Source: Somniosus microcephalus (Eukaryota). Taken from it: a DNA stretch of 64,000 nt. The notes under the pieces were generated by a model. It had not been told where the DNA came from and did not search any database. It worked only from the letters and a program-made list of their open reading frames with translations. The translations under genes and the position numbers were made by a program. Location: NCBI GenBank assembly GCA_052327205.1, contig CM126228.1, positions 8,618,001 to 8,682,000 on the forward strand. Reading direction: 5' to 3'. Within the stretch, counting starts at the first letter, position 1, and the number at the start of each line of letters is the position of its first letter. Below are positions 428 through 62,513 of the stretch, in pieces.

Positions 428-931
428 AACTGGAAATGCTCAGCTAGTCAGGCAGCATCTATGGAGAGAGAAGCGGAGTTAACGTTTCAGGTCTGTGACC
501 CTTCATCAGAACTGGAAAATATTACAGATGTAACAGGTTTAAAGCAAGTACAGAGGGAGGGGAGGGGAGGAAAGAACAAAAGGGAAGGTCTGTGATAGGG
601 TGGAAGGCAGGAGAGATTAAATGACAAAAGGGGTGATGGTGCAAAGCAAAAGGGGGTAGTAATGAGACGAGTAAAGAAGCAAAAGATGGGTCTGGAGGAG
701 CTGTAAATGGCAACAGCAGAATCGTTACCAGCATCTGCTGACTGGAAAATGTGGGAGCGGTGGTTATGGTCTGAAATTGTTGAACTCGATGTTGAGTCCG
801 GCAGGCTGTAAAGTGCCTAATCGAAAGATGAGGTGCTGTTCCTCAAGCTTCCATTGGGCTTCATTGGAACAGTGCAAGAGGCTGAGGACAGAAAGTTCAC
901 AGTGGGAGTGGGGCAAGCAGCCGGAAGCTCA
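428..931 (-). mobile_element. Penelope-like element 3' fragment
   Basis: Minus strand encodes HCSNEAQWKLEEQHLIFRLGTLQPAGLNIEFNNFR (GIY-YIG C-terminus) followed by the same type of 3' end as 42150-42247. Confidence 0.9.
477..513 (-). ncRNA. Minimal type I hammerhead ribozyme motif (intact core)
   Basis: AGUU-CUGAUGA-a-GGGUC-aca-GACCU-GAAAC-GUU-AACU: stem I AGUU/AACU, stem II, palindromic ACGU stem III, as described for Penelope-like element hammerheads. Confidence 0.8.
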
Positions 932-1561
932 GTGTCACGCTTTCCTACCTGTTCCAAATGCAACCAGCCCTACATTGTGAGGCAGTTGCCATGTAACACA
1001 TGTGCCATTATGATGTCATAGATCCAACACTGTCCTTTTCTTGAGAGGACAGTGCAGTGGGGCTTAGTTCGGAATGAGGTTCCTGTCCAGGAACACATGG
1101 AAGGCATAGTGATGGAGAAGTTGTTTTTTTGTGTATGTTTCTGCCTGAAAGATTTTCTGTTGCCTTCACCTCTAGCCCTTGTACTAAACCACACGCATCT
1201 TTTGGAATCGAGATGGTCTGCTTGTGAGGTTTCAGCAATTTCTCTGTCATCCGTGCCCATTCAGGAAGCCTAGTTGGTGACCAGGTTTTTTTTTTAAGTG
1301 GGAAAAGTCAGTGGACTTTGATGGGAGACTGTTGCGATGTAAATGAGCCACACTGTTTATTGGTTTAAGTGTAGCTTGAAAAAAAGAAAATATTTATTAG
1401 ATGGCGTTAGACTACCAACATAAATGTTGCTTGGAGAGCACCGTTTGCAGTAGATAGGTGAACACGTGGTGGTGACACCTTTTCCGTTTGTTTACCTCCT
1501 CTTCCTCCCCCTCAAAAACCCTGTTTTTACTGTTGTGATCTTAACAGGATTTAGTTTACTT

Positions 1562-2102
1562 AAGAACATAAGAACGTAAGAATTAGGAGCAGGAGTAGGC
1601 CATATGGCCCCTCGAGCCTGCTCCGCCATTCAATAAGATCATGGCTGATCTTCGACCTCAACCCCACTTTCCTGCCTGATCCCCATATCCTTTGATTCCC
1701 CTAGAGTCCAAAAATGTATCGATCTCAGCCTTGAATATACTCCATAACTCAGCATCTGCAGCCTTTCGGGGTAGAGAATTCCAAAGATTCACAACCCGCT
1801 GAGTGAAGAAATTCCTCCTCATCTCAGTCTTAAATGGCCTACCCCTTATCCTGAGACTATGCCCCCTAGTTCTAGACTCTCCGGCCAGGGGAAACAACCT
1901 CTCGGCATCTACCCTGTCAATCCCCCTCAGTATCTTCTGTATTTCAATGAGATCACCTCCCGTTCATCTAAACGCCAGAGAGTACAGGCTCAATCTCTCC
2001 TCGTTGAACAACCCTCTCATCCCAGGGATCAATCTAGTGAACCTTCGTTGCAATGCTGCTAAGGCAATTTTGTCCTTCCTCAGATAAGGAGACCAAAGCT
2101 GG
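1562..2102 (-). mobile_element. CR1 LINE 3' fragment
   Basis: aagaacataagaac tail; MFPLAGESRTRGHSLRIRGRPFKTEMRRNFFTQRVVNLWNSLP. Confidence 0.92.
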
Positions 2103-2637
2103 ACTTTTTGGCATCATTTTTAAAATGATGATTTTTGAACTCTGTGCTCTCAAGGGTACTTTTAAAATATTTTAAATTTTAAGTTGCTATAACATGCCAA
2201 AGTGACCCCTGCTGGGAGGTGCAAGTGTTTGGCCATCGGGTGAAGGTAGGATTGTTGCCAGCTGTAATGCCTATTATAGTCAAATAGCATTTATTGAAAA
2301 ACTATGGGGAAGGGCTCTGAAAACAGACTAGGTGATGTACAGTTTGGGTTTTAAAAGCCTGAAGATTATAAGATTTTAAGTCTGCTAGTTGTTTAGGTTC
2401 ACTCCTGGAAAAATGACCACTTGGGTGAAGTATCAGATTGCTGGTGATTATGAACCCATATCCTAGCAAGAATCGATGCTTTAGGAGACGAGGGAGCAAA
2501 ATTAGGGTGGGTGGAAGAGTATTTGTTGCTCTTGCCTTCCTCCATGGAAGATTGAACTCGATCAGACTGCAGGAGAGTGGGAGAACATGCTCTGCATGCT
2601 CACACTGGAAGCAGGAGTTTTACTCTGCTTGAAAGTA

Positions 2638-2946
2638 CAGGAATCTTTCGATTTACCGGCACCTAAATAACGGGAAATCTCGGTTAACCGGCAAAATTCA
2701 GGAGTAGGTTCAGGTAACTTTTATTACTTGCCTTCCTCCATCTGTTGCTGTGCAAGGGTGTGGCTGCAGCTGTTGCTAAGCTACAGAGACGCTTGCAACT
2801 TGTGCCATTGTTCTGAACCATTTGCTAAGCAACAGGGTTTGTTACTTTAGCTCCGTATCTTTTACTATAGCTTTCGGTTATCTGGAATTTTTGATGAACC
2901 GGCACCACGTCGGTCCCGTCCGTGCCGGATAAAAAAAAGTTTCCTG
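2638..2946. mobile_element. Tc1/mariner (Tigger/pogo-like) MITE
   Basis: TA|CAGGAATCTTT...AAAGTTTCCTG|TA; interior homologous (opposite orientation) to 9744-10078. Confidence 0.8.
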
Positions 2947-3707
2947 TAGTTTTAATCTATGATGGGCGTGATTATGACAGCAATTCTCCTAATTAAAAAA
3001 TATCTCTGCTGTCCCAATCACAGAGCTTGTTAACTAGCAGACACTTGTGACTTTCTATGTTTTTAATCTTTTATTTTTGCCACGGTATAGATTAAACAAC
3101 CAAACCATTTTGGGTTTTTTCCCCCCAATTCTCTTCCCTTCTGGGCACCAACTGAAGCTCATCCAGTTCCACAGGCATCCACAGCCTTGAAGTGGACATT
3201 CTTCACGTGAACTTACACAGCTAATGTCGGTAATCAACTGTGGACATTATGGTAGCTAAGGCAAATCTCTGTATTGGATACCAGTTGTCCCGGTGGGTCT
3301 TCGCCCCCCCCCCCCCCCCCTCTCCCCACCAAACTACGATCTACAACACAGACCAGCTATTGAACCTGAATCTTCTGGTCTCCATGCTGCTTTACCACAC
3401 AGACAAACACTAGTAGTTTAGTGTGAAATGCAACTCTGAAAACATTCCGCATAACCACTGTTCCACCCTCAACAATTCTGTCTGCTGAATTCTGCTTACA
3501 CCCCTGGGCCTCAGTAAAACTGGCCTGTCAATCATCCTTTAGACATATGGCCAAACCTGATGCTGCTGTTCAGGATTGAAAGTTAGCTCACCTTAACTTT
3601 CAGAATATTTAAAATTTGCTTGATTTATATGTCCATTGAACTTTATTGAGCAAATAAAGTGGCTTTAGGCCAGCTTGTTCCAAGCAAAGTAGTCTTGTCT
3701 AGTATAA

Positions 3708-3988
3708 GGCTTCTTTGACAGCACCTCCCAAGCCCATGGCCTCTACCACCTAGAAGGACAAGGGTGCCATGGGAACACCACCAACTCCCAAGTTCCCCTC
3801 CAAGCCGCACACCATCCTGACTTTGAAATATATTGCTGTCACTGGGTCAAAATCCTGGCACACACACTCCCAGCAGCGGTTCAAGAAGGCGGCTCACCAC
3901 CACCTTCTCAAGGGCAATTAGGGATGGGCAATAAATGCTGGCCTTGTCAGCGACGCCCACATCCCGTGAATGAGTTTTTAAAAAAAAT
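3708..3988 (+). mobile_element. 3' end of a non-LTR retrotransposon (RTE-X-like)
   Basis: cagcggttcaagaaggcggctcaccaccaccttctcaagggcaattagggatgggcaataaatgctggcc, a common elasmobranch LINE 3' end; clade assignment is from memory. Confidence 0.6.
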
Positions 3989-5956
3989 ACTGATTTCCCT
4001 GCCTTGTGGATTTTATATAGACTGCTAGATTTCCTGTGGCATCCATTTAAGGTTAGATGAATTTATGCGGACTATATTATATACCATGTAACACAAAATG
4101 CATTAATCTGCTGTTGAGTAAACTCTGAGTGCGGTCAGACTTTTCTCAATCATAAGTCAGAGCTGTGGCTTTTTTTTAACGTGTGTGACTGGCAAGGCAA
4201 CTCTCAAGTTAAACAGGAAATGTGCACTAGATGTGCTGTTTTTATGACAATTAACCTTTAATAGTTTTATCTTGTGCACTGAATTGATTAATTTGATTCA
4301 AAAACATTGTCTGAAAGAAACTAGCTCCCTTGAATTTTACATTTTTTTTTCTTTTTGTGAAGTGATTTGGGGATTTACCTGTCAATCCTAGTTGCCTAGT
4401 CCAGAGTATATGAAAGACAGCATTATAAAGGGTAATGCTGTCCTTACTCTGTTTCAGAAACGTCAAAGCTTTGCAAGGACTTTCTAAGGTTCCTTTTTAT
4501 GGGGGGAAAAAAACAGCAAAGGTGTTCAAAGAGAATTGCCATTTTTTTTTTACAAGACCAGTGTCAATATACCTTGTTATACTTGTCTAAATATATCTCG
4601 TGATTTCTTAATTTATTTTTCGTCGGTGTGATTATGCGGCTTTGCCTTCTATACAAATAAAATAGGCTTTGCATTACACGAGTACTTTATCTTTTCAGGT
4701 TAATTTGTCTACATTAATTGTTTTTTGGGAGAGTTCCCAGATACTTGGGTGCTAGGACCTAACTATGGTAGGAATAGATTGTAAATACTAATTAGCTTTA
4801 GAGCAGATATCTTGAATACGTATTACTGACTTTTCAGTCTGATATAACATCTGTTTTCTTTTTTGCTGATAATCTCCTTTCCCTCTCCTAAAGACGATGC
4901 TTCTTGCTGGGTTACATTTGCATGAATACCACTCTTGCCCAAGTGGTCATTCTTTATGTATGATTGTAGACAGTAAATATTGACGGGTTATTTAAGTGTG
5001 GAGAGGTGCAGAGCCGAGCCTGATCCTGTCCTCGTCCAACATCCTTGTCTAAGCACCACCCAGCAGAGACCACAGAGTAGGACCAGAAATCCAAACTGAT
5101 TTGTCTCCTACATAACCCAGTGTTACTAAGGTCAGTTCTGATGCCTGTAACACTGACCTTGTTGAGATCAGGTAACTCAGCAAAGAACAGCGATTGAAAC
5201 TGGGACTTGCTGGGCTATTTGCATGCTGCCTTTGCCACCTAAGCATTTGCAGAAAGTTAGATCTGTTGTTTCAGGTGTAGATGTGCTGTCATTTTTCTTT
5301 GTCTTTAAGCATTCTGTAGTTGCAATGCTGGTGATGATCCTGAATAAAATGCCACCCAGATGAGGTTGATCTGTATTATCTCTTTGATAGAAAGTGGTTC
5401 TGCTTCTAACACTTTGTTAGTGTTTAGAGAGGATCACCTGTGATCTCAACAATTTCAGACTTTGAGAGAGGCACTTTCACTTTAGCATATATATCTTGTA
5501 ATATTTGCCTTCAAATGTTTTCACTTTTCACCCTCTTCAAAATTCCATCCCTCTAATATCTCAAACAAATGTGCACAAGCTTAGACAATGTTGGCAGGCT
5601 ATCCTACGCTTGATCCTGTCCAAGCCCATTATCAAGGTACGTACACGTTCAGGCAGGGATCATTGGATCGCCATCCTTCCTCACTGCTTTCACAAAAAGC
5701 CAAGTTAGTGGCGACTGCTTGGCTACGAGAGCGAACAGCATAATTCAGAGATCTAACTTGGGATGTTACTGATTTGTAGAGCTCAACACACCATGCATAA
5801 CAAATGTGATGCAGCAACATTTGAGAAACTGAAAAGATTATGATTAAACTGTGGAATAATTTATGAAATTTGACCTTTATTGTACACCTCGTAAAAACTG
5901 AGACTTTGAGCTACATTGCACATATCAGGGAAATATACTGTGTATGCACAGCTACA

Positions 5957-6225
5957 GAATCATAGAAATTTACAGCACGGAAGGAGGCCATTTCAGCCCG
6001 TCGTGTCCACCCCTGCCGACAAAGAGCTATCTAGCCTAATCCCACTTTCGCTCTTGGTCTGTAGCCCTGTAGGTTACAGCACTTCAAGTGCACATCCAAG
6101 CACTTTTTAAATGTGGTGAGGATTTCTGCCTCTACCACCCTTTCAGGCAGTGAGTTCCAGACCCCCACCCCCCTCTGGGTGAAGAAATTCCCCTCAAATC
6201 CCCTCTAAACCTCCTACCAATTACT
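5957..6225 (-). mobile_element. CR1 LINE 3' fragment
   Basis: gaatcatagaaatttacagcacggaaggaggccatt tail and 'ctctgggtgaagaaatt' CR1 3' motif. Confidence 0.8.
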
Positions 6226-6756
6226 ACAGCATCCTATCTGAAATACTGCACAAGTACTGTTTCCACCATCCGCTTGTATGGGAATCTCTTCAATGGTGGG
6301 CACGTAACCTGTATGTGATAACAAGAGTTGAGATGGAGACCTACATAAACAGATTAATACCAGATGTACTCTGAGCATTCACTGTTTGCATGGTGGTTTT
6401 CTCTTTACTCAATTCTTCATGCTCTTTCACTTCACTGTGCCAGCAGTGAAAAATGTCTGAGGAGGAGCTAATTGGATCCCAACCTCTTGTTCTTTTTTAA
6501 ATCTTTGATTCTCTGAAATATTCTAACTTCCTGTTATGCTGTAACAAGAGCTGATTATTGGGGGGGGGGGGAATGGAGTGAATTTGCAGAATTAGTGTGC
6601 TCACCAAAGTGGTTAATACCGTGGCGACATAACCACTTCAAATACATACAGATGTGGCAGTTTAACACTTTTGTATCTGATGCAATATACAAGATTAAAA
6701 AACAATATTGAGGGCTGGCTGGTAGCAGTGAGTTATACGCTGGCATTTCACCTCTG

Positions 6757-8912
6757 ATCCGAAACTAGGGTCCTAAATCTAAACAAAGGAAACTACGAAG
6801 GTATGAGGAGTGAGTTGGCTATGATAGATTGGGGAGCTTCATTAAAATGGTGGATAGGCAATGGCTAACATTTAAGGAACGAATGCATGAATTGCAACAG
6901 TTATACATTCCTTTCTGGCGCAAAAACACAAAGGAAAAGCGGCCTAACCATGGCTAACAAAATAAATTAAGGATAGCATTAGATCCAAAGAGGAGTCATA
7001 TAAAGTTGTCAGAAAAAGTAGCAAGCCTGAGGATTGGGAGCAGTTTAGAGTATGAGAGTAAACTTGCAAGAAACATAAAAGCGGACTGTAAAAGCTTCTG
7101 CAAGTATGGAAAAAGATTAGTGAAGACAGATGTAGGTCCCTTACAGTCAGAAACGGGAGAATTTATAATGGGGAACAAGGAAATGGCAGAGCAATTAAAC
7201 AAATACTTTGGTTCTGTCTTCACGGAAGAGGACACATACCTTCCCAGAAATGCTAGAGAACCCAAGGGTCTAGTGAGAAGGAGGAATTAAAGGAAATTAG
7301 TATTAGTAAAAAAAAATAGTGCTGGAAAAATTAATGGGACTGAAAGCTGATAAATTCCCAGGGCCTGATAATCTGCATCCCAGAGTACTAAAAGAGGTAG
7401 TCATGGAAATAGTGGATGCATTGGTCGTCATCTTCCAAAATTCTATAGATTATGGAACAGTTCCTGCAGATTGGAGGGTGGCAAATGTAACCCCACTATT
7501 TAAAAAAGGAGGGAGAGAGAAAACTGGGAACTACAGACCAGTTAGCCTAACATCAGTAGTAGGGAAAATGCTAGAGTCTATTATAAAGGATGTGATAACA
7601 GGACACTTAAAAAATATCAACGGGATTAGACAAAGTCAACATGGATTTATGAAAAGGAAATAGTGTTTGACAAACCTACTGGAGTTTTTTGAGGATGTAA
7701 CTGGTAGAATAGATAAGGGAGAACCAGTGGATGTGGTGTATTTGGATTTTCAGAAGGCCTTTGATAAAGTCCCACAAGAGGTTAGTGTGCAAAATTAAAA
7801 CATATGGGATTGGTGGTAATATACTGGCATGGATTGAAAATTGGTTAACAGACAGGAAACAGAGTAGAAATAAATGGGTCATTTTCGGGTTGGCAAGCGG
7901 TGGCTAGTGGGGTACCGCAGGGATCAGTGCTTGGGCCCCAGCTATTCACAATATACATCAATGATTTGGATGAGGGAACCAAATGTAATATTTCCAAGTT
8001 TGCTGACGACACAAAACTAGGTGGGGTTGTGAGGAAGATGCAAAGAGGCTTCAAGGCGATTTAGACAAGTTGAGTGAGTGGGCAAATACATGGTAGATGC
8101 AGCATAACGTGGATAAGTATGAAGTTATCCACTTCGGTAGGAAAAACAGAAAGTTAGAGTATTATTTAAATGGTGATAGATTGGGAAATGTTGGTGTACA
8201 AAGGGACCTGGGTGTCCTTGTACACCAGTCACTGAAAGCAAACATGCAGGTGCAAGCAGTTAGGAAGGTAAATGGTATGTTGGCCTTCATTGTAAGAGGA
8301 TTTGAGGACAGGAGCAAGGATGTCTTACTACAGTTATACAGGGCCTTGGTGAGACCTAACCTGGAGTACTGTGCAGTTTTGGTCTCCTTACCTAAGAGAG
8401 GATATACTTGCCATAGAGGGAGTGCAGCGAAGGTTCACCAGACTGATTCCTGGGATGGCAGGACTGTCGTATGAGGAGAGATTGGGTCGACTAGGCCTGT
8501 ATTCACTAGCGTTTAGAAGAATGAGAGGGGATCTCATTGAAACGTATAAAATTCTGACGGGGCTAGACAGACTGGATGCAGCGTGGAAGTTTCCCCTGGC
8601 TTTGGGGGGGGGGGGCGGTCTAGAACGAGAGGTCACAGTCTCAGGATACGGGGTAGGACATTTATGACTGAGATGAGGAGAAATTTCTTCACTCAGAGGG
8701 TGGTGAACCTGTGGAATTCTCTACCACAGAAGGCTGTAGAGGCCAAGTCACTGAATATATTTAAGAAGGAGAGATTTCTAGACACAAGGCATCAAGGGGT
8801 ATGGGGAGAGAGCGCGAATATCTTATTGAAATAGAGGATCCGCCATAATCATATTGAATGGCGTAGCAGGCTCGAAGGGCCAAATGGCCTACTCCTGCTC
8901 TTATGTTTCTAT
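6757..8912 (+). mobile_element. 5'-truncated CR1 LINE (ORF2 RT region and 3' UTR)
   Basis: [68 protein letters not shown]; frameshifted; ends with cctgctcttatgtttctat. Confidence 0.95.
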
Positions 8913-8919: not shown

Positions 8920-9524
8920 TCCTGCCTGGCAGCGCCTCAATTTTAAAATTCTCATCATTGTTTTCAAATCCCTCCATGGCCTTGCCCCTCCCTATCTCTA
9001 ATCTATTCCAGCCCTACAACCCTCCGAGATCTCTCTGCTCCTCCAATTCTGAAAGGGTTAATTAATAACCTTGTAGTAAAGGGGCCTTTAGGGAAGGGTG
9101 ACCATAATATGATAGAATTTTATATTGAGTTTGAAAGTGACTTGACAAAGGGTTTCGACCTGAAACGTTGACTCTTTCTCTCTCCATGGATGTTGCCTGG
9201 CCTGCTGAGTTTTTCCAGCATTTCCTGCTGTTTCTATTTCTTATGTTCTGGCCTCCTGTGCATCCCCAATTTTAATCGCTCCACCATTGGTGGCCATGCT
9301 TTTAGCTGCCTAAGCCCTAAGCTCTGGAATTCCCTCCCTAAACCCCTTCGCAACTCTCTCCTTTAAGATGCTCCTTAAAACCTACCTCTTTGACCAAGCT
9401 TTTGGTCATCTATCCTGATATCTCCTTCTGTGGCATGGTGTCAAATTTTGATGATTAAAGCTCTTGTGAAGAGCCGTGGGACGTTTGCTACGTTAAAGGT
9501 GTTCTATAAATGCAAGTTGTTGTT
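8920..9524 (+). mobile_element. L2-type LINE 3' fragment, interrupted at 9052-9245
   Basis: FKILIIVFKSLHGLAPPYL and KLWNSLP reading; ends ataaatgcaagttgttgtt. Confidence 0.8.
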
Positions 9525-9743
9525 CAAATTTGGTTCAGACTAATGGGTTGAAAGTCTTCTCTTTCTGTTGCCTGTAAGAGTCCAAAGTGGAATTGATTTA
9601 GGCAATTTTAATCAAGTTCCCAGTGAGCATGGACCCACCACATAGAACTGTGTCAAATCTACACTCATTGGCAATTTCATTTAGAGGCCACAGATTACTA
9701 GCATGGGAAATGAAAAAATATCCTACTGGTGCAGTAGCAAGTA

Positions 9744-10078
9744 CAGGAAACTTTGTTATATCCGGCACCGACGGGACTGAGCTGTTGCCGATCTATCAAA
9801 ACTGCCGGACATACAAAGTTAATGTTGAAGCATACGGAGGTTTTCATCTCCGTATCTGACAACAAACACTGTTGCTTAGCAACAGCTTCTAAACAGTCGG
9901 CCCGTACCTTGGAAGCGTCTCTGTAGCTTAGCAACAGCTTCAGAGAGACTTTCCAGAGCCTGACTGTTGGGGGAAAAAAAAGCCACGAGAAGAAAAAAAA
10001 CCTAACAAAACGGCTCCTGATTTCTGCCGGTAGATCGAGGTTTCCGGACATACAACCCGGATAAACCAAAGTCTCCTG
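9744..10078. mobile_element. Tigger-like MITE
   Basis: TA|CAGGAAACTTTGTTATATCCGG...CCGGATAAACCAAAGTCTCCTG|TA. Confidence 0.87.
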
Positions 10079-18400: not shown

Positions 18401-18627
18401 AAAATCTTTATATAGGTGCTGTTTGCTTTTTTTATTGTGTAAGAAAGATACAATGCTGACGTTGTATTGGTTTGTTTGAAGAAATGGCCCTCTTGGTAAC
18501 GACTCGTTCATGCTTATGGAGAGTGCAGATATTTTTTATTTGAATTCTCATAAGGGCTGACATACATATTTTATGAAGCGATTGTTCGATGCTTGCATTG
18601 ATACATCCAGGGTTCTTGGCATTACTA

Positions 18628-18757
18628 CGATAGCAAAATACTGCAGATGTTGGAAATCCGAAATAACAACAGAAAATGCTGGAAAAACTCAGCAAGTCAG
18701 GCAACATCCGTGGAGAGAAATTTGAGTTGACGTTTCGGGTTTGACCCTTCTTCAAAA
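18628..18757 (-). mobile_element. Short Penelope-derived unit with hammerhead motif (18725-18759)
   Basis: Matches 42150-42247 over about 98 nt; 13-bp TSD CTTGGCATTACTA (18615-18627, 18758-18770). Confidence 0.88.
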
Positions 18758-19898
18758 CTTGGCATTACTATTTGACTTGGGAGCATTGTGAGATAGCTGG
18801 TTTGGTCTTGGTTTCTGGGAATGAGGGGACAGAGGAAGTTCTGCATACTCGTGTTTATGTTGGTTGGCACTGTTGCCATATTGATTTCTTGAGGATCGTG
18901 GGGGCAAGGGTCTGATTCTCCTCCGGCTGTTGTGTGGCATAAGTCGAGGTTATATAAGTTTAAAAAGTAGGAAATTAAGTCGTCAGATGGAATAATTTTT
19001 ACCCAAAGGATAAGCAAAATTGTAGAATGTTACCAGGAAAGATTTTTAAACAGATTTTTAAAAAGTTTGAGATAATTGGATCTATTTCTGGAGAGAGTTA
19101 GGAATGAAGAATAGGATGGGTAGGTGGTGGTAGTGGTCTATGAAAAGGTACAGCTTGTTTGGGCTTGATGGTCTCTTCCTGTGCATCAATGTGAACTAAC
19201 AAAATAGGGTACACCTTGCATGGAGAATGCTGTAAAGTCATGATTGTTCTCCGTAAGTAAGCCTAAAGGGCAGTATAGAAATGAGCTTTGATCGACTCTG
19301 CCTGCTTTTTTTTTTACATGAGCTATTTTATATCCTTGGATTGAAGTGCCAAATGTGAGGGGCATTCGCTTTATTTGTTGCATGCTTACTTGGGCAATAA
19401 ATCTTTACTGAATAATATCAATGGCCAATAGAATAAAGAGCATATAGCTCCTCTAATGGTTTTGTGGAAAAATACATCTCCCAGGTGTGGTTTTCCGTGT
19501 GACTCTATGAAGCACCGTGGCACAATTTTCCACATTTGCCATTGGTGCCTCTGATAGGTTGGGAATATGAGTCAAGGTTCACATTTCTGGTCACTATATA
19601 GCAACAGCTAAAGGAACGTGCACGTATGGATGTTGGGTGAGGGCAGGATCACACCTAACTGTGATGCTTCCTCGGTCAAATAGTCTGATGTTCATTGTCT
19701 TGAATCCCACATGAAGAATGGCAGATTGTCGAAGGTACTGGCGAGTTGCTGGTGGAATTCCATCCCAGCAAGTATTGGTGCCTCTGAAAGAGGAGTGGAA
19801 CAATTGGCAGGAAGCGGTTTGGAACAAACTGCCTGTGGGTGTGACAAAGCAGAGTAAAGTGATAAAACTGATTCCAGTTAATATTTTTTTTTAAGGAC

Positions 19899-20215: not shown

Positions 20216-21418
20216 GGGCCGGATTTTGCTCTGTGGCGAACGGATGTCACCAACCCTTCATTACACTTACACTTGCCCATAGACTTTCTATGGGATTTTG
20301 CACTGGAACTTACTGTAAATTAGAGACAATAAGTGTAGTGCCCTCCACAGACATCTAGGACCTATGTGAATAGGGCAAGCAACTATGTATCTCCTTAACT
20401 CACCAGACTGAAGAATCGTTAATGAGCAACACAGAGACTGAACCAGGAAGTGGCAGTTAGCATATCTGGTTCAGAAAGCAAAATAAAGAGCGGGAAAGAA
20501 AGATACAGGAAACTTTGTGCTATCCGGCACCCACGGGACCGAGCTGCTGCCGTTGCCTCAAAACTTCCGGATAGACCAGAGTCAATGTTATCAGATAGGA
20601 GCTTTTCATCTCCGTATCTGACAACAAAGACTGTTGCTTAGCAACAGCTTGTCAACACTCGGCCCGTGGCTTGGAAGCGTCTCTGAAGCTGTTGCTAAGA
20701 TACAGAGACACCTTCCAGAGCCTGCCGTATCTGACCACAAACACTGTTGCTCAGCAACAGCTTGTAAACACTCGGCCCAGTAGCTTGGAAGCGTCTCTGA
20801 AGCTGTTGCTAAGCTACAAAGACGCTTTCCAGAGCCTGCCTGTGAAAAGAATGCTAGGAGAAGAAAAAAAACCTAACCAAAACGGCTGCTGATTTCTGCC
20901 GTTAGATTGAAGCTGCCAGACATTCAACCTCCGGATAGCACAAAGTTTCCTGTACAAAGATATCAGAGAGCGACAAAAGAGACAGAAGGAAAAAGTATAT
21001 TTTTTATTTAAATGTTTTTAGTTTTTAAAATCACCAACAATAATTAAAATCTGAAGGAATGAGACTCCACACTTGTAAAAGTTAATTTTCAGTACCAGAG
21101 AGGTTGTTTGGCAGTAATTAAGACTTACCACGCCGTTAAAAGGGCACTTACACTGGAATGGACAAGCCCTAACTTTTTCTGACGAGTTTAATTCCTATCT
21201 CTCAGTTAAGTACAGCAGCTTCACGCCGTTCAATGTATTTGAACAGTGAGTCAGTGGGCGGGGTACCATTTATAGCAGATCTTTGGAGGAGCAGGGCATC
21301 TTGGACAGCAGATTACGGAATTCTGTGTTTAGCTGCGCATGTGCGGTTGCTGGAAGTTGCTGTCCGAATTCCATGTAAATAACGGTGAGCACATTATTTC
21401 TACTGCAGAATCCGGCCC
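20216..21418. mobile_element. Non-autonomous DNA transposon, PIF/Harbinger-like (hosts the Tigger-like MITE)
   Basis: Termini GGGCCGGATTTTGC / GCAGAATCCGGCCC; AT-rich centre; TSD not clean. Confidence 0.65.
20506..20952. mobile_element. Tigger-like MITE with an internal ~113-bp tandem duplication
   Basis: Perfect 22-bp TIRs CAGGAAACTTTGTGCTATCCGG and TA TSD; repeat units start at 20612 and 20725. Confidence 0.92.
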
Positions 21419-22739
21419 AGTATATCTATTTTTGTTGTCCTGTTTACAGTAATTGCATTATCCCAGAACACTGAAAATGCAATTATTTTTGTTATGTTTC
21501 TAATTTAGCAGAAAATTTAGATGAACCGATATGGGAGGGAAATTATCTTTAGCCTAATTTTCAGTAGGCTCTTGTTACAAGAATATGATGTGCTAGTAAG
21601 AATTTTAGATTGATCAGAAAAATCTAGAGGTGCATGTGGGTATCTAAAAATGTAGCACCAGTTTGAATTGTGCTTATTGAGCTGAGGGATGTCTGTGCTG
21701 GGGAATGGAATGCTTTCTCATTGTTGACACTAAAAGCCAGTATCAAGTTAGTTTTGGAATGGCTATGTGTAGAGCAAAGCATCTTCTCCTCCCTAATAAC
21801 CCACTGCTCCACCAGTGTGCATTTTTCCGTTTCCTATACCAGCCATCCAGCGGCTTCTCTGAAATTGACAGTTAGTGGTGACGTGCGATTGTTTTGTGCT
21901 ATGGACCTTTGGCTACTTGGAACTGTGGTTGAGCTGTCCAAAATAATTTCTCGTAGGAGCCTTACAGAAGCAGGGAAAGGTCTCGGACATGATGGGGGCA
22001 GTGTGTTATACACTATGTGCCATCCCCTCCCAAAATATGTAATCGTATATTGTTTTGTACTGAATTTAATTTCCATCTAGGACTTTTCCTAATGAGTTGT
22101 GGAGTCCGTCTCCCTCTGGGAATCCGAAGCTGCAGTGTTCTTTGTGTTATGCCATATTTGTGAAACAATAAATTGCTTCGCAGGTTGCTTATTTTCTTTG
22201 GCAAGGGACTAGAAGTACGGGTTATGCAGTAAAAATGTTAAGCTTGCAAATTAAAATGCTAGTTGAGTTTACTTGAATTTGTTTTGTTTTCTTACAGTAA
22301 ATTTCAATAATTCACAGGTTGAAGGATGTACTAAACACAAACACAGAAAATGCTGGAAATATTTTTCTGGAACTGTCGGCATGTGAAAAGATAAAATTGA
22401 TTAATTTTTGGGACCCTTCAACAGAATTACTAGAAACTTATATTGTTTTTATTACCTGTTAGATACAACAGTATAACTAAGGAGAAAACTGTAATGCAAG
22501 GCTATATATATTCATTGTATTGTATATTTGTTCAAGTACACTGGTTATTATTTAAGTCTTAAACACAAACTCAATTTACAACTTGATTAGGAATGCCAGT
22601 AATTTTTATAAATGGTAAAATCAGACTTTATCACAGTTTTAAGAATCTAGATGAAAATCCTAATAGTTTTGAAATTCTATAATATGCCAAGGTTTGAGAT
22701 TTTGATGATTATTCTCACCAGCATACTTTTGAATTACAG

Positions 22740-28582: not shown

Positions 28583-29661
28583 GTAAGTAGTTAGCCGTCT
28601 TCGATTTTGCATAGCTTGGTCTTAACTGACTATAATTGCATGCTAAACTGAAACAGTGGGAAACTTGAGTGGCTCAGGTAAAGATGTTGTAGTTTTGTGT
28701 ATGCAGTTCAAATCAAACATCTGGTCTGTTTCAATTTCTCCAATAAAGTAGTTAAGATGCTGACTACTTCTCATCTCTTGGTCTGGGACTACATTTGGCC
28801 TCAGTGCCCTAGGAAAGGGAGGAGAGAAATCATTATCCAATTTAAAATAGAGTTTTTGACAGTAAGACTAAAGTAAAATACTTGGTGTTTTAATTTAAAC
28901 TGTTCTAATGTATTTGCATAAATAAACCTATTTGAGAATTAAAATTGCCAGTTTGAAATTTTATGCCATAGCACAACCTGCTCATAAAGACCACATACAC
29001 ATGCCGCCCGCACAAACCCACATCCGCTAAGAACAGCTCGGCTATTTTGTTAGCCGTGGCAGCTCTTAATCCCAATTCCCTGCCCCTTATCTGTGTCCCT
29101 TAATACCAATACCTATCTCCCTTTTAAATGCCTGTGGTGATTTTTGCATCCATAAACCTCCGAGACATTGCAATCCATGTTCTCACAACCTTTTTGTGAA
29201 GACATCGTTTCTGGATTTGCTTTGAACCAGCTTAGTTTGAATATTAATATACTGCCTCCTTGTTCTGGAAAGAGTGATTCACTATCTGCCTTGTTATTTT
29301 ATACACTCCAGTCTCTCAACCTCTTAATTTCCAGGCAATTTAACCACAGTTTACCCACTCCTAGCTCAGCCCCTTCATCCAGGTATTATCCTGGCGAATC
29401 ATCACTGGACTTTCTCCAAGGCCTGTATATACTTCTACGGTGGAGTACTGAGCACAATATAGCAAATGAGGCTTGACCATTGCTATATCAAAGCAGTAGT
29501 ACTTCCTTGCTTTTATATTCTAGGTAAAGGGCAAAACAGTCTCATTATATTGTAAAACTACTGGTTAGTGGAGTGATTTCAAGGATATGATCTCATCTTG
29601 GGATTCACACAACTATTGTAAACTGCTCAAGCATTGCCCTGGATTCAGTTACCTGCATTAT

Positions 29662-29858
29662 CACTCCCAGGCGTTCACGGTTCCCCATGTAACACTCCCA
29701 GGCGTTCACGGTTCCCCATGTAACACTCCCAGGCGTTCACGGCTCCCCATGTAACACTCCCAGGCGTTCACGGCTCCCCATGTAACACTCCCAGGCGTTC
29801 ACGGTTCCCCATGTAACACTCCCAGGCGTTCACGGTTCCCCATGTAACACTCCCAGGC
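29662..29858. repeat. 31-bp minisatellite, about 6.3 copies
   Basis: Unit CACTCCCAGGCGTTCACGG(T/C)TCCCCATGTAA; variant order T,T,C,C,T,T. Confidence 0.97.
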
Positions 29859-30311
29859 AGCTCTCCTATATAACAAAATTTTGAGCATCAACAAAATAAT
29901 TATTAGGCATTCATAGCATCAATCTTCCACCTCCTCTGCTGATTATAAGAGTTTCTGGGATTTAAGGAAAGCTGTGAGCGAAGTTTTCTGATACAGAAAT
30001 AAAGATGAATGCTGTTCAGTAGGTTACTACTTGTTTCGATCCCAACCTTACTTTAAAGCATAATTTTAATGAAAGAAACAGGAACTATTTCTGGCACTAT
30101 TACCATCTTTTTAATAGCTCTGTTTAAAAATAAAAAAAAAATAAAAAAAATATTGTTTGGTTTACAAAGTTTCTAATGGGTTATCAAGAAGCAAATTGTA
30201 TAAATCATTCGATTCAGTACTCATGAATGATATTTTGAACTGTCCTGTACGATTTCCTTTACTAATATAAATTTGAAATGTGTGAAAAATATATCTTTCA
30301 ATTTTATTTAG

Positions 30312-55640: not shown

Positions 55641-55816
55641 TGTAGTGTCCGTGTGTTGATAGAGACACTGAAGACAGGAGTTGGTTCATAGGTGTTTACT
55701 AAGCAAAGTCTGGAGGGGTACTAACGGATATAACACAATATGCAGGCTTATATAGCCCGAGTGGCCCTTACCGGCATTACAGCACATATGGGGCTCTTAA
55801 AGGCACATACACTACA
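55641..55816 (-). repeat. 3' LTR of the Gypsy element
   Basis: Direct repeat of 60175-60350; preceded on the minus strand by the polypurine tract AAAAGGGGAGGAAT (55817-55830). Confidence 0.96.
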
Positions 55817-55909
55817 ATTCCTCCCCTTTTAGCTAACCAGTACATCATATTTTAAGTAATTATTAATTACATGTTATAAGAAAAATAATATACACATTGC
55901 TGTAGTTAA

Positions 55910-58900
55910 TTAATTATAAGTCAGTCTCTCTGGAGGCTTCCTGACTCGGTCCGGATAACGCCTCGGTGGTGTAGTAGGTTCTTTTGGCAAGGCTGATTTG
56001 GCTTGAATGCCAGTGTCGGGTTCATCGGGTTCCAGTATCACCGGATCGGAGGTAGATATGGGTATCTCTACTTCATCGTTCGGCGTATAGAGTTGTGGTG
56101 TAGGTTGTCCCTTTTCGGATGACTTTATGATTTGGTCAGCATGGCGCCTTATTATGCTTTCTCCGATGTCCACGGTATACATCAGTGGTCCTAGTCGTGT
56201 GCAGATAGTTCCAGGCTGCCATTTCTCGGTACGGTAGTCCCGGGCCAAAACTTGTTGACCTATCTGGAAGGTTCTAGTTGGCCTTTCATTCATGCCTTGA
56301 AACTGCCGGTTCTCCACGTCCCTTCTGATGTTGGGCTTGACCAAATCCAGCCGGCATCTTAGGTTTCTATTGAAGAACATCATGGCGGGAGTTTAGTTGG
56401 TAACCATATGTGTTGCATTCCTGTATGTGAACAAGAATGTGCTGAAGTTTTATGTCTTCATTACCCATGGCCTTTATGGCCTTCTTGAAGGTCTGGACAA
56501 ACCTTTCAGCCAATCCATTGGTGGCGGGATGGTATGGGGCGGACGTGTAGTGCTTAACCCCATTGTTTTTTTAAGAACTTCCTGAATTCTTCAGACACAA
56601 ATTGCGGTCCATTATCAGAACAGATCTGTTCCGGCAGCCCATTCCTGGCAAATATGGTCCTTAATACTGTGATGGTTTTTTCCGGGGTGGTGGAGGACAT
56701 CTTTATTACCTCCGGCCACTTGGAGTGTGCATCAACCGCGATTAAGAACATTGAGTCCATAAATGGACCAGCAAAGCCGATGTGTACCCTTTGCCAGGGA
56801 GATGAGGGCCACTCCCATGGATGTAGAGGGGCTTGTGTGGAGCGTTTTGGACCTTCTGGCATCCTAGGCAGCTCTTGGTCATTTCTTCGATGTCTCCATC
56901 GATACCTGGCCACCATACAAACGCCCTGGCTAGGTTCTTCATTTTCACTCCACCCAGATGCCCCTCGTGAAGCTCTTTTAGCACTTTATCCTGGAGTTTG
57001 GGTGGAATTACCACTCTGGATCCACACATCAAGGTTCCTCGGCACACTGACAGCTGTTCTCTTCTTTGCGAGAATGCTGGCAACAGTGGTTCGCCATGTG
57101 CTGGCCATCCCTTCATTGTTAAATCGTAGACCCGTGAGAGAGTCGGGTGATTTCTCGTTTCCCTTTCAGTGGCAGAATTTGTTACTGGTAGACATTCCAC
57201 TATGGTAGAGTGGAACATCTCCACTGGGTCTACTGTAGGTGCCTCTTCTACCGTTGGCAACGGTAGGCGCAATAAACCGTCAGCATTCCCATGCTGTTTT
57301 GATCCTTTGTATTCTATGTTGTATTGGTGTGCCCCTAGAAAAAGGGACCACCTCTGTAGCCTTTGCGCTGTCATAATGGGAACACCCTTTTTAGGGTTGA
57401 ATATGGAGATGAGGGGTTGATGGTCAGTCAACAAGGTAAATTTTTGTCCGTGTAGGTAATGGTTGAATTTCTTCACTCCCCATACCAGGCTGAGTGCTTC
57501 CCTGTCGATTTGGGCATAGTTACGCTCAGCTGAGTTCAATGAGCGTGACGCAAAAGCTATCAGCCGTTCCGAGCCATCAGGAAATTAATGCGATAATACT
57601 GCTCCTATGCCGTAAGGGGATGCATCGCACGCCAGTCTGATTGGCAGTGATGGGTTGTAATGAGCCAAAACTTCTTTGGATGTGATTAAGTCTTTGCATT
57701 TATGGAAGGCACGTTTGCAGTCTTCGTTCCATTTCCAAATTACTCCTGTTTGTAGCAGTTCATTAAGAGGGTGTAGAAGAGTTGATAAGTTCGGTAAAAA
57801 TTTATGATAGTAATTTATTAATCCCAGGAACGACCTTAATTGTGAAACATTTTCAGGCGCTGGGGCTTTTATGACCGCTTCAATTTTTTCAGGTGACTTA
57901 TGCAACCCTTCCTTATTTATTATGTGGCCACAATATGATATTTGATTTTGGAAAAATTCGCACTTGGGGCGATTTGCTCGTAGGCCCCGTTCTCTCAGCC
58001 TAGTGAGCACCTGCTCTAAATTGGCAAGGTGCTCGTTGACGTTTTCTCCTGTTACAAGGATGTCGTCTAGGTAGCATTGAGTCCCCGGAATCCCTTGGAG
58101 GACTTGCTCCATAGCTCTTTGCCAGATAGCTGGAGCGGATGCTACTCCGAAAACCAGTCGATTGTACTGGTACAGACCTTTGTGTGTATTTGTCGTGAGA
58201 TTTTTTAGAGGCCTCTTCAACCTCCATCTGTAGATATGCCTGTGCCAAGTCAATTTTGGTGAAACGTTTCCCTCCGGATAGTGAGGCGAAAATATCTTCT
58301 ATCCTCGGAAGAGGATACTGTACCGTGTGAAGGACCGGGTTTACAGTCACCTTGAAGTCTCCACAGATGCGAATTTTTCTCTGTTCTTCAGATTTATCAT
58401 TCTTCAATGCTTTCTTCATGACTGGGACGATGGGTGTTGCCCACTCGCTCCAATCTATTTTAGATAATACGCCTGCCTTTTCCAAATTCTCCAGCTCTGC
58501 CTCGACTGCTGGACGAATTACGTATGGCACCGGTCTTGCCTTAAAAAACTTGGGAATTGCTGCATCTTCCACTTTTATTGAGGCGGTGATGCCTTTCAAG
58601 GTTCCTAGTTTCTCTTGAAACACTTCCTTGGCGTTGGCCAAGATGTCTTTTAATCGTTCAGGTATGACGTCATCATTTTTTTTCCTTACTGGTTACCGTC
58701 AGTGCCTGAATGGAGTGCCAGTCTAAACGTATTTTCCTGATCCATTCACGTCCCAAAAGCGGTGGACCACCATCTTGTAGAACGTATAAATACAACTTCT
58801 GTATTTCCTTGCCGTTGTATACAACAGGCACCCTTATTTTTCCTTTGGGGTATACTTTCTGCCCCGTATATGTTTTCAAGATAATGGATGTGTCTTTTAA

Positions 58901-59720
58901 AGGTATATGCGGAAATAGCCGCTCGTAATCCCGTCGATTTATGACGGTCAGAGCTGATCCTGTATCTAGCTCCATTTTAACTGGGGACCCTGCTATTGTG
59001 AGGGTAACCCAAATGGTCTGGTAATCTTCTTTGGCAATTACATTATGTAATTTGAGAGAGCTTAGTCTCTTGTTCCCGGAGTCGCTATCGCTCTCCTGGT
59101 CTTCGGAGCTACTGTCCGTCATCATTTGTACCTTTCTGTGCTTTTCCTTATTGATTCTTTTCCCGTTAGTGGATTTTTTGTTTCCAGATCGACACACACG
59201 TGGAATGTGTCCCATCTTTCCACATTGCCTGCATGCTTTGTCCTTGAACCAGCAGTCCCTCTGGTCATGGGTGGATCTGCCGCAGCGATAACATCTCTCG
59301 AAACCCCGTGTCATTTCATGGGTGCCGAAGTCCTGTGGCCTTTGCTGTATCTCTGCAGCTCCTCTTGCACTGAAAGCCTTGTCCAGTGTTAAATCTTTCT
59401 CAGAAAATAGCTTTTTTTTGTGTTCCTACACTTAGGAGACCGCAGACGAATTTGTCTCGCAGAGAATCTGCCAGTCCTGCCTCGAATTGGCAGTGTAGGG
59501 TATCAACAATCTCCTTAAAATTCTTGTCCATCGGTTCAGCTGGAGTGATTAAGTTTCGTAACAGCTTGTATGTCTTTGCGCCCATTAGATCCAGAAGTAC
59601 TGAAGCTTTTTTCTCATCTTCTATTCCATTTGCGGTGCAATATACCTCCACTCTTTCCACATATGTGGTCCAATCCGCTATCTCGTTATCAAAAGCATCA
59701 ATATTGCCAGAATTAGGCAT
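55910..59720 (-). pseudogene. Frameshifted gag-pol of the Gypsy element
   Basis: Gag start MPNSGNIDAFD; twin CCHC knuckles CYRCGRSTHDQRDC / CRQCGKMGHIPRVC; protease LDTGSA; RT KIDLAQAY and YLDD; RNase H LACDASPYGIGAVL; integrase HEGHLG..C..C, SDNGPQF; C-terminal PRRYPDRVRKPP. Split over about 7 ORFs. Confidence 0.93.
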
Positions 59721-60157
59721 CTTAGAAAAGATATGGCGCTTCCCGCGCTTTTCTTTCTTTTCTGCAGAAAAGATATGGCGCTTCCCGTGCTTTCCCGCTG
59801 CTGCTGCCGATGACAACGCTGTTTCCCACGGTTTCCGTTCTTTCTTTTATTTATTTATTTATTTACAGTTGGAGACTCGTTCCCGCCGGACTCTCTCTGT
59901 AGGTCTGAACGCCGACCTGCTTGCAGCCGCGGCCGTCTCCCGAGTGCTTCCTCCCCGTCTGTTACTGCTTGCCTCCGCTTTCGCTGCTTGGCCCAGCTGT
60001 AGAGCCAGCCGCCGGAGCCCCAGCCTGACGCCCAGGAAGGATTACCGCAGTACCTGCCACTAGCTTGGCCAGCTGGTGAAACAACAGCTTCTTGATTCTT
60101 CTGGACGCCAGAGGAATCGATGTCCTTGAGGTGCTGCCGAATTGTAGGTAAGTCTGT

Positions 60158-60173
60158 TTCCACTTCGTCGCCA
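60158..60173 (-). promoter_or_regulatory. Primer-binding site, probably tRNA-Ser(GCU)
   Basis: Minus strand TGGCGACGAAGTGGAA, 1 nt after the 5' LTR; complementary to a tRNA 3' end ...CGUCGCCA, as in vertebrate tRNA-Ser(GCU) (assignment from memory). Confidence 0.75.
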
Positions 60174-60174
60174 C

Positions 60175-60350
60175 TGTAGTGTCCGTGTGTTGATAGAGAC
60201 ACTGAAGACAGGAGTTGGTTCATAGGTGTTTACTAAGCAAAGTCTGGAGGGGTACTAACGGATATAACACAATATACAGGCTTATATAGCCCGAGTGGCC
60301 ATTACTGGCATTACAGCACATATAGGGCTCTTAAAGGCACATACACTACA
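60175..60350 (-). repeat. 5' LTR of the Gypsy element
   Basis: Direct repeat of 55641-55816 with 4 substitutions; minus strand has a TATATAA box and an AGTAAA poly(A)-like signal. Confidence 0.96.
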
Positions 60351-60865
60351 GTTTCCATTATTTTTCCTACCACCGATGTTAAGCTGACTATAAGTTCCCT
60401 GGACATGTTGTATCTCCCTTCTTAAATATAGGTATTACGTTAGCTATCTGCCAGTCCTCTGGCACGACACCTTTTTCTAACGAATTACTAAATATGTGTA
60501 GTAATGCTTCTGCTGTTTCTTCCCTAGATTCTTTAAAAATGCGTGGATGTAATCCGCCCGAACCAGGGGTTTTATCCTCTGAGTTTCATTAGTTTATTTA
60601 GTATATCTCCTCATTTTATTTTAAATGCAGTTAACTCATTACTAACCTCATCATCTGATGTCATCTCCACCTGTTCTATCTCCCTGGTAGATACTGAAGC
60701 AAAGTAATTATTTAATATCTCTGCCATCTCTCTTCCAAGCAATGTTAACACTCAAATGGCTTTTATACAGTTATTTTGTTCTAAAATGTTTACTAACAGT
60801 CGTTGCAAGGAATGGTTTTGTAGACTTTTTAATTAATCTGTAAATTCTTTTTTTTTTAAAAACAG

Positions 60866-60996
60866 ATTATTTATGGAAATCCTCAATTGTTGCACGGACT
60901 GTGACGAAATTCAGTTTAAGGAAGATGGAGCATGGTCACCGATGAGAATGAAGAAGGAGGTTCAGGAAGTGAATTCCTCTTTTAATGGTGTAGATG
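60866..60996 (+). CDS. PIAS1: PIAS1 exon 10 equivalent
   Basis: aaacag|A TTA TTT ATG...GAT G|gtacgc; LFMEILNCCTDCDEIQFKEDGAWSPMRMKKEVQEVNSSFNGVD; 131 nt. Confidence 0.95.
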
Positions 60997-62411
60997 GTAC
61001 GCAATTTTGTTACAAGGGTTATGGGGAACGAGCAGGGGTTAGAGGAATAGCTCCCACATGGCACAATGGACCAAGTGGCCTCTTGTACCAAATTATCCGA
61101 GAAAGCTTTGTTTTAACAGAATCTGGATAGTGGCATGGTCAAGGAGACTCCTTTTACCTCTTGGTTCAAATCCATATTACACTGATGGGATAAAAGCCTG
61201 TTGACTATAAGCCTGGCATGTGAAATATGGCCGCGCTGTCTCAATCCATTTCCAAGTGGACGTGGGTCTTCTAGCATAAAAATGGGTGGTGTAGGAAATA
61301 GGAAAAAAAGGGAATGCTATTACAAACCAGGCTTGCCCTCATTTCTAACCAGCAAGTGAAGGAGTACCAGTAGAAACGTTGGTCCTATAGTTTCTCTCCT
61401 TGAGCAAGTACCTAGCTCCACAGTGATTGGGGCCAAGAACTTACTATGGCCTCGACCTGCATTCCATCATTGTGTGTTCCAATATTCTTGACGCACTGGG
61501 ATTGTACTCGTGAACAAAAACTGAGCAGTATTGACAGAGGAGCAGTCGTCGTCCTCCAGTAAGACGGTCTAAAATCTCTTTGGGAGAATCACTAGAATCA
61601 GTTAAAACCATTTATTTCTATGTCTCTGTTTTATCAGGCTGTAGTGTTGGTTCTGCGGCTTAGAATTTTTTGATTCTAAATGCCTTCTGCAATCCAGTTT
61701 GGGAGGTGCAGAAGCATTATGCTAAGAAAAATAGTTTCTGACCACAAATTGTTACCTTTTGCTAAAACTGAATAGTAAAACAACACAGCTTAAATCTCAA
61801 ATGTAAACCTTTCTGGAAGCATCTTGTAATGGTCACTAAACCTCAAGTGTCTTATTTGCTTTTGCAGCTGTCTGAATGCTAGCTGCTTTCTGTGGTGTAA
61901 CATTTGCAAAATCAATACACTATTGCAAAATGTATAGAATCATGAAGTGGAAATGGAGTGAAGTATCAGACCACAAGATTTTTTTAAAATTGAGAGTACT
62001 AGGTGAAGAGCCAGGGAACATAGTATAGGACACCATCAATGTTGAAAAAAGAAAAGACAAGGTTATTGAAAATAGTTAATGGGTGATGCCATGTTTGGGA
62101 TTTAAAAGTCTGTAGATTGCTGGAGGTACCAAAGATTGAGGGAGGTGAGGAGTTGCATAGTTCTGGGAAAGGAAGAATTATGGTAGGACTGTGACATTGA
62201 GTTTCTCTCACTATAAGGTAGGGTCTATTATCTGAATCTTAAGGGATGGTGCCTCAAGCGAAATGCACTCACCAAGATTGGAAAGACATGTGTTATAGGT
62301 TAGCGTAGTCTTATTTAACCTTTGCGGGTGCACTGAATCAAATATACCTTACACTTCTAGTAGACAAAAAATACTACAAGCAAACCAGCTTCTAAACAGG
62401 CTAGATATCCA

Positions 62412-62513
62412 AAATAAAAGCAGAAAATTCTGGAAATACTCATCAGGTCAGGCAGCATCTGTGGCGACTGAAACCGAGTTAACGTTCCAGGTCGATGACA
62501 TTTCGTCAGAACT
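62412..62513 (-). mobile_element. Short Penelope-derived unit with degenerate hammerhead (62477-62513)
   Basis: AGUU-CUGACGA...GGAAC-GUU-AACU plus the same tail. Confidence 0.8.

What the first reader, a model, noticed from the sequence alone, without database searches (positions are those of the whole stretch)
477..62513. Family of ~100-130 bp hammerhead-ribozyme units that all begin right at the ribozyme
Seen: at least seven copies of one Penelope 3'-end module carry a minimal type I hammerhead fold (stem I AGUU/AACU, CUGANGA-type core, short stem II, GAAAC-GUH with palindromic stem III). Two are attached to GIY-YIG coding remnants (477-513, 42150-42184). The five short copies (9141, 18628-18757, ~22340-22428, 46963-47064, 62412-62513) all have their 5' boundary within a few nt of the core, and one has a clean 13-bp TSD. 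Known: Penelope-like elements carry minimal hammerheads in their pseudo-LTRs, thought to act as dimers. Inference: the shared 5' end is not random truncation. It suggests either a non-autonomous ribozyme-bounded mini-element (retrozyme/SINE-like) mobilised by the Penelope RT/endonuclease, or a fixed stop or template-switch point at the ribozyme. The copies keep the core, which lies upstream of the cleavage site, so they are not simple 3' cleavage products.
Basis: partly seen in the sequence, partly recalled or inferred. Interest (0 to 1): 0.7.

Follow-up and report, generated by a model that had tools for sequence, protein, structure and literature searches.

The report
Penelope stubs start at ribozyme edge
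These short repeats are cut-short copies of an active Penelope-like jumping gene, and thousands of them begin at the front edge of its hammerhead ribozyme motif rather than at the cut site, likely because the RNA being copied begins there.

Summary
The seven copies are real; four shorter pieces in the window were missed. All are ends of a Neptune-type Penelope-like element whose intact parent (955-aa RT plus GIY-YIG) is in this genome. The 'module' is a minimal hammerhead plus the first codons of the ORF, bounded by the element's two known 3' start points. The shared 5' boundary holds genome-wide. In 1.72 Mb of evenly spaced samples, 20 of 55 arms start at -2..+12 of the ribozyme, against 3 in the 43 nt upstream. 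About 15% of young-subfamily arms and about half of older-subfamily arms that reach this point stop there. No peak lies at the cut site. Short and long copies are intermixed on a tree, and each short palindrome has its own junction, so this is not a separate SINE or retrozyme family. Only one of the seven copies has a canonical core. Best reading: stubs are run-off cDNAs from RNA that begins at stem I; a protein-bound block is the main rival. RNA-seq did not decide. The scan noted this hot spot before (e1-9815464, same genome; e1-9996638, another genome). I found it in no paper searched.

The parts
430..915 (-). 5'-truncated long copy, older subfamily: end of GIY-YIG ORF (745-914), 3' UTR, module (430-513) with the only canonical hammerhead core of the window (477-513)
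9141..9240 (+). short copy starting at +4; U3-A8 core variant; tail-less; no TSD; flanked by other repeats
18628..18759 (-). short tailed copy of the young subfamily, +1 to +132; U3.G8 core; 100% identical over 99 nt to 42150-42248
18615..18627 (+). 13-bp target-site duplication, second copy at 18758-18770 (overlaps module +1,+2)
22335..22428 (-). heavily decayed copy (19.6 bits); no GAAA box; 5' end cannot be placed
41428..42248 (+). 5'-truncated long copy of the young subfamily, 98.7% identical to the full-length element L201: open ORF end with GIY-YIG (to 41913), 3' UTR, tail-less module 42150-42248; 14-bp TSD at 41415-41428 and 42248-42261
46961..47063 (-). short tail-less copy starting at +1; A6U core variant; no TSD found
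62392..62513 (-). short copy of the older subfamily starting at +1, partial tail; GAAA box changed; no TSD found

Best explanation
The short units are 5'-truncated copies of an autonomous Neptune-type Penelope-like element, and their 5' ends pile up at the first bases of the hammerhead's stem I, likely because reverse transcription starts about 99 or 131 nt downstream and runs off an RNA that begins there. Shown: parent element, module anatomy, two fixed 3' ends, the pile-up with a sharp upstream cliff and a graded downstream shoulder, no peak at the cut site, no separate lineage. From literature: the two 3' ends are reverse-transcription start sites (Frangieh 2024, in a Poseidon element). Inferred: a fraction of bound RNAs start at +1, either as a transcription start or as an RNA trimmed back to the protein-bound ribozyme fold; joining and trimming then give ends at +1..+12. 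Long copies would come from RNAs that extend upstream (tandem read-through or circles).
For: Full-length copies with a 955-aa ORF starting at module +53, RVT_1 and GIY-YIG matches, CX4CxxC linker. Evenly spaced sample: 20 of 55 arms end at -2..+12, 3 at -45..-3. Young subfamily, rows selected for short arms: 52 of 93 vs 15 and 49 of 97 vs 21 (partly the same rows); calibrated 14.8% stop in 14 nt vs 7.3% in the next 43 nt. Older subfamily: 34 vs 3, with 34 long. In palindromes a short arm usually has a short partner (about 29 of 35 rows, by eye, some pairs counted twice), as expected from one shared template end. Junctions differ from case to case and carry no recurring upstream sequence. Palindromes have one tailed and one tail-less arm in 16 of 16 and TSDs of 11 bp or more in 11 of 20 (control 6 of 60 at score 9). 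Modules still joined to the ORF rarely stop at the edge: 3 of 72.
Against: No RNA 5' end was seen: two RNA-seq runs show no pile of read starts at +1, though such libraries and a repeat of this copy number are poorly suited. No excess of an extra G before +1 (G 25 of 95 non-C; p 0.56), so no sign of a copied cap. If the element's mRNA started at +1, full-length copies should end there; 69 of 72 ORF-linked modules and 4 of 4 full-length copies run further upstream. The contrast between first and second passage is modest for the young subfamily (p 0.04; p 0.35 against the rows). Only 3 of 13 single copies at the edge have a TSD. A head-to-tail trimer also begins at +2 (L241). A protein-bound block explains most of the same data. 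All listing counts were scored by eye on the first 100 rows.
Confidence: 0.5

Rival explanations
1. Leaky template boundary: the RNA continues upstream, but the protein holds the ribozyme fold of the module it primed on, and the reverse transcriptase often stops when it reaches the 5' edge of that bound fold, much as telomerase stops at its template boundary element (analogy recalled, not from a call).
For: Stops are frequent at the first passage and rarer at the second (3 of 72). The edge coincides with the first paired base of stem I. In the anole element the ribozyme cleaves only with the protein present and the shortest active 5' end lies inside the ribozyme region (PMC11167929).
Against: A fold met from its 3' side should stop the enzyme at +20..+35, where ends are 3- to 6-fold rarer. 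The cliff at -2/+1 is sharp. Second-passage contrast is only p 0.04.
Confidence: 0.28
2. The boundary is a 3' splice site: a pyrimidine tract plus YAG ends at +2, and either bound splicing factors block the enzyme or spliced RNA is copied.
For: Pyrimidine tract and YAG precede the core in every subfamily seen. In D. virilis Penelope the intron ends at the 5' end of helix I (PMC4209133; PMC2377424).
Against: No GT..AG joint into +3 among listed RNA joints (15 of 20 shown). No recurring exon sequence upstream of short copies, and palindrome centres lack spacers.
Confidence: 0.1
3. A separate non-autonomous family (SINE- or retrozyme-like) bounded by the ribozyme and amplified from its own master copies.
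For: Tens of thousands of dispersed short units, some with TSDs. Rare head-to-tail arrays exist (146-bp trimer L241, 262-bp units L242). Retrozymes derive from pLTRs (bioRxiv 10.64898/2026.07.22.740005).
Against: Short and long copies are intermixed: 13 label changes vs 13.3 shuffled, 262 of 500 shuffles as low (89 columns, low resolution). Window copy 18759 is identical to a long copy. 5' ends vary from -2 to +25. No array among 84 sampled arms.
Confidence: 0.06
4. The stubs are copies of RNA cut by the hammerhead, or the pile-up is an alignment artefact of a poorly conserved upstream region.
For: Four older-subfamily arms start at +34..+36, next to the cut. Upstream UTRs differ between subfamilies.
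Against: Targeted search for ends at +29..+42 gave a flat profile (5 of about 31 at +34); none at +32 in the young subfamily. The pile-up holds within one young subfamily with near-identical upstream sequence read base by base.
Confidence: 0.04

Closest known systems
EN+ Penelope-like elements, Neptune clade; insertion anatomy of Arkhipova 2013 (PMC3846280) and Craig 2021 (PMC8557442)
   Same: Single RT plus C-terminal GIY-YIG ORF with Cys-rich linker; heavy 5' truncation; partial tandems; inverted 5'-truncated partner; one-sided 30-40 nt tail; pLTR holding the first codons; TSDs.
   Different: The passages read describe variable truncation and give no hot spot of 5' ends at the ribozyme's 5' edge.
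Minimal type I hammerheads of metazoan PLEs (Cervera and De la Pena 2014, PMC4209133)
   Same: Short stem I, extra base before stem II, palindromic 15.2-16.2 with no loop 3, U3-A8 variant, mostly single motifs ascribed to truncated PLEs.
   Different: The youngest subfamily with intact ORFs has U3.G8; breakpoints were not mapped there.
PAc Poseidon element of the green anole (Frangieh 2024, PMC11167929)
   Same: Ribozyme at the ORF start; two internal start sites that define the tail; no sign that cleaved RNA is the template.
   Different: Here the ATG lies 21 nt after the cut site, not inside stem II; clade is Neptune-type; 5' ends of genomic stubs were not analysed in the text read.
Non-LTR retrozymes (PMC7229834; bioRxiv 10.64898/2026.07.22.740005)
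   Same: Non-coding, ribozyme-bearing, related to pLTRs; rare tandem units exist in this genome.
   Different: Window copies are single or head-to-head, not tandem; minimal rather than canonical hammerheads; no own lineage; no circular RNA shown.

Membership tests
EN+ Penelope-like element (Neptune type) | Single ORF with RT and C-terminal GIY-YIG endonuclease | tested here: met
   L201: 955 aa; RVT_1 E 6e-5 and GIY-YIG E 1e-3, both under Pfam's curated cut-offs; window fragment passes the GIY-YIG cut-off, 23 vs 22.6 bits
EN+ Penelope-like element (Neptune type) | Cys-rich linker (CX2-5CxxC) between RT and EN | tested here: met
   CX4CxxC at residue 821; clade trait; no RT tree was built
EN+ Penelope-like element (Neptune type) | Partial tandems, inverted truncated partner, one-sided tail, TSD | tested here: met
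Minimal type I hammerhead | Stems I and II with pairing kept across variants; palindromic stem III | tested here: met
   45 rows: stem I position 4-34 T-A 22, C-G 4, T-G 4, unpaired 3; base of stem II G-T 18, G-C 14, A-T 10, unpaired 2; 3-8 pair C-G 23, T-G 5, T-A 4, other 3. Counts are rows, not independent events.
Minimal type I hammerhead | Intact catalytic core in each copy | tested here: not met
   1 of 7 window copies; 15 of 35 rows with a full core
Minimal type I hammerhead | Self-cleavage as a dimer | not testable with these tools
   needs an in vitro assay
Non-LTR retrozyme | Head-to-tail repeats with at least two complete ribozymes | tested here: not met
   no array in the window or among 84 sampled arms; rare arrays elsewhere (L241, L242)
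Non-LTR retrozyme | Expressed as circular RNA | tested here: inconclusive
   RNA reads come from both strands; no joint at the cut site listed
SINE-like non-autonomous family | Own lineage amplified from master copies with a fixed 5' end | tested here: not met
   intermixed with long copies; 5' ends spread from -2 to +25
SINE-like non-autonomous family | Internal polymerase III promoter | not tested
   no search for A/B boxes was run

The most novel reading that the evidence does not exclude
The ribozyme fold works in this retroelement mainly as a boundary, not as scissors: it marks where the protein-bound RNA begins or where the telomerase-like enzyme halts after about 100-130 nt, giving a strong-stop-like cDNA. 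That cDNA is either inserted as a stub or carried on to an upstream or circular template, which would explain how pseudo-LTRs and retrozyme-like tandem units arise.
Probability: 0.2. Interest if true: 0.7.

Novelty: new member of a known kind. Interest (0 to 1): 0.42.

Why it matters
How Penelope-like elements copy themselves, and what their hammerhead does, is still open. This genome holds roughly 300,000 module arms (extrapolated from 79 in 1.72 Mb), a natural record of where reverse transcription ended. It says that cut RNA is not the usual template and that something fixes a boundary at the 5' edge of the ribozyme. A young family with intact ORFs makes both readings testable in vitro. The elements themselves are ordinary, and the window copies are mostly dead.

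Tried and rejected
Rfam scan: 7 weak matches, no hammerhead. DNA searches with the module's 3' part and with an ORF stretch returned nothing because common words are skipped. The top-30 hits were not used for breakpoint counts (selected for full query match). An ORF listing of the sample was uninformative. Cap-derived G: first 100 of 285 rows gave A 55, G 25, T 20 (A 50 after collapsing one tandem); no G excess. Splicing into +3 and read-start piles: not seen; the run search listed no RNA holder of the stretch, and the two RNA runs laid were added by species label. Peak at the cut site: rejected; about 45 of 100 rows are insertions of another element next to the cut and mimic 5' ends there. 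My first estimate that 22% of young arms stop at the edge (used, p 0.001 for the second-passage contrast) assumed half of flanks are purine; searches corrected it to 15% (p 0.04). The partner count typed (33 vs 5) was loose; a recount gave about 29 vs 6, so that p-value is not used. Monomer folding energy gave no signal. Lunse 2017 is not held; no paper on the effect of U3.G8 was found. Supplements of the bioRxiv preprint and of Frangieh 2024 (Fig. S2 maps genomic ends) were not seen and may bear on whether the hot spot is already visible in print.
Full report
Numbering: +1 is the first base of the 5' strand of stem I (window 42150 on +, 18759 on -). The predicted cut follows +31 in the young subfamily and +33 in the older one. 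An 'arm' is one copy of the module; a palindromic insertion has two.

Observation. A profile built from natural copies finds 11 pieces in the window and 84 in 172 evenly spaced 10-kb stretches of the genome, with 0 in the reversed sample; 5 of the 84 belong to another family. Of the five short copies, three start at +1, one at +4, and one is too decayed to place. One has a 13-bp TSD. Only the copy at 477-513 has a canonical core. Rfam finds no hammerhead and monomers fold no better than shuffles. Pairing is kept across subfamilies in stems I and II, and the 3-8 pair occurs as C-G 23, T-G 5, T-A 4, other 3 of 35 rows. This matches the minimal hammerheads of PMC4209133 (parts 1-2 of 4 read).

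Parent element. A protein search with the window's ORF end gave 96,744 candidates, 150 scored; 4 of these have open frames of 977-994 codons. L201 is a partial tandem with a 955-aa ORF whose ATG lies at module +53, with RVT_1 and GIY-YIG matches below Pfam's cut-offs and a CX4CxxC linker. The linker points to the Neptune clade (PMC8557442 passages; PMC3846280 parts 1-3 of 5); no RT tree was built. The module is therefore the ribozyme plus the first ~26 codons. Copies end at about +99 or +131; RNA reads break off at the same two places. In the anole element these two ends are the start sites of reverse transcription, and ribozyme cleavage is dispensable in vitro (PMC11167929 parts 1-2 of 4). 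Palindromic insertions have one tailed and one tail-less arm in 16 of 16 (7 of these loci were selected for a tail-less arm) and TSDs of 11 bp or more in 11 of 20, against 6 of 60 random places at a lower threshold.

Is the 5' boundary random? No. In the sample, after dropping 5 other-family arms, 5 interrupted by insertions, 2 at stretch edges and 17 under 40 bits, 55 remain: 9 end beyond -240, 8 at -240..-46, 3 at -45..-3, 20 at -2..+12, 10 at +13..27, 5 further down. Exact-pattern searches of the whole genome agree; rows were scored by eye on the first 100 listed. Young subfamily, 13,286 matches: about 80 of 100 rows run past -38, 8 end at +1..+14, 4 at -1..-37. Selected for short arms (2,789 matches; 7 rows dropped as duplicates, internal deletions, ambiguous or other subfamily): 52 of 93 at -2..+12, 15 at -45..-3, 15 at +13..25, 6 at +26..35, 5 beyond. 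Complementary searches on tailed arms (987 and 4,086 matches; 3 rows dropped) give 14.8% stopping within those 14 nt and 7.3% in the next 43 nt, a 6-fold rate. Older subfamily, 10,597 matches: 34 long, 11 interrupted, 2 dropped, 34 at -2..+12, 3 upstream, 12 at +13..27, 4 at +34..36; about half stop at the edge. The profile is a cliff on the 5' side and a slope on the 3' side.

Not the cut site. None of 93 young rows starts at +32. A search aimed at ends +29..+42 in the canonical-core subfamily (509 matches) gave a flat spread, 5 of about 31 true ends at +34; about 45 of 100 rows were another element inserted beside the cut.

Not a separate family. On a tree of 45 arms (29 short, 16 long; 89 columns, 4 of 41 branches well supported) the label changes 13 times, as in shuffles; one 'short' row is really an interrupted long copy. 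The window stub at 18759 is identical to the long copy at 42150 over 99 nt. Palindrome centres differ from case to case. Retrozymes are defined by head-to-tail units (PMC7229834 passages; bioRxiv 10.64898/2026.07.22.740005 parts 1-3 of 5); none occurs among the 84 sampled arms, though a 146-bp trimer and 262-bp units exist elsewhere.

Mechanism. Three features coincide at +1..+3: the first base of stem I, a YAG after a pyrimidine tract, and an initiator-like word (consensus recalled). For a physical RNA end: the sharp cliff, and short arms pairing with short arms (about 29 of 35 rows). Against a simple mRNA start: no cap-type G (cap copying recalled), no read-start pile, and 69 of 72 ORF-linked modules run on upstream (734 matches; 25 rows without the module in view, 3 ending at +13..39). 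That deficit against the young rate is modest (p 0.04; p 0.35 against rows). So the boundary seems to act mainly on the module where copying began. I commit to run-off from an RNA that begins at stem I (0.5), with a leaky protein-bound block (0.28) and the splice site (0.1) as rivals. In D. virilis Penelope an intron ends at helix I (PMC2377424 passages), but no spliced joint or recurring exon was seen here.

Novelty. The element, its ribozyme, palindromes and tail are known kinds. I found no report of a hot spot of 5' ends at the ribozyme edge in the listings or the texts read (also PMC6765202 passages); Lunse 2017 and all supplements were not seen. Earlier AI notes of this scan report the same pile-up in this genome and another; I had reached it before those calls and they are not independent support. 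Verdict: real, non-random, a by-product of a known class of element, with a testable clue to its mechanism. Interest 0.42.

Noticed in passing
L068:423-1160, L081:4764, L105:3536, L110:5156; rows: Another mobile element with GC-rich ends sits at one spot, between the GAAAC box and the cut triplet, in about 11 of 100 older-subfamily arms; it splits the ribozyme and mimics 5' ends at the cut site.
   Followed up: partly
L241:163-552: Head-to-tail trimer of the module, period 146 bp, first unit starting at +2, last unit tail-less: a retrozyme-like arrangement that could fold as a dimer.
   Followed up: partly
L242:134-1126: Units of 262 bp (-52..+220, ribozyme plus ORF start) in tandem with an inverted arm; looks like repeated copying of a small template.
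   Followed up: partly
G000:C1:401819360-401825864: Three modules 3,153 bp apart, probably a full tandem array of the element.
   Followed up: no
window 42150-42184 and L201: The youngest subfamily, which has intact ORFs, carries U3.G8 in the core; a sister subfamily has U3-A8 with a compensatory change in stem I.
   Followed up: partly
L209:1793-1938 and 4896-5039, L210:8642-8785, L214:6346-6488, L217:506-651: A second repeat family with a related hammerhead-like start and a shared upstream sequence; probably another Penelope-like family.
   Followed up: no
window 61927-61959 and 62514-62544: A 31-33 bp near-identical direct repeat, one copy abutting the 5' end of the stub at 62513; the 430 bp between had no match in the sample, so a long TSD with carried flank is possible but unshown.
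   Followed up: partly
L204:5316, L158:6357, L110:7104, L122:9780: Long copies with small internal deletions that remove part of the ribozyme, one at the 5' module of a full-length ORF.
   Followed up: no
window 29628-29875: Tandem array of a 31-bp unit.
   Followed up: no
window 2764-2951, 9739-9964, 20499-20840: Repeat family with internal 52- and 113-bp periodic pieces, in direct and inverted copies.
   Followed up: no
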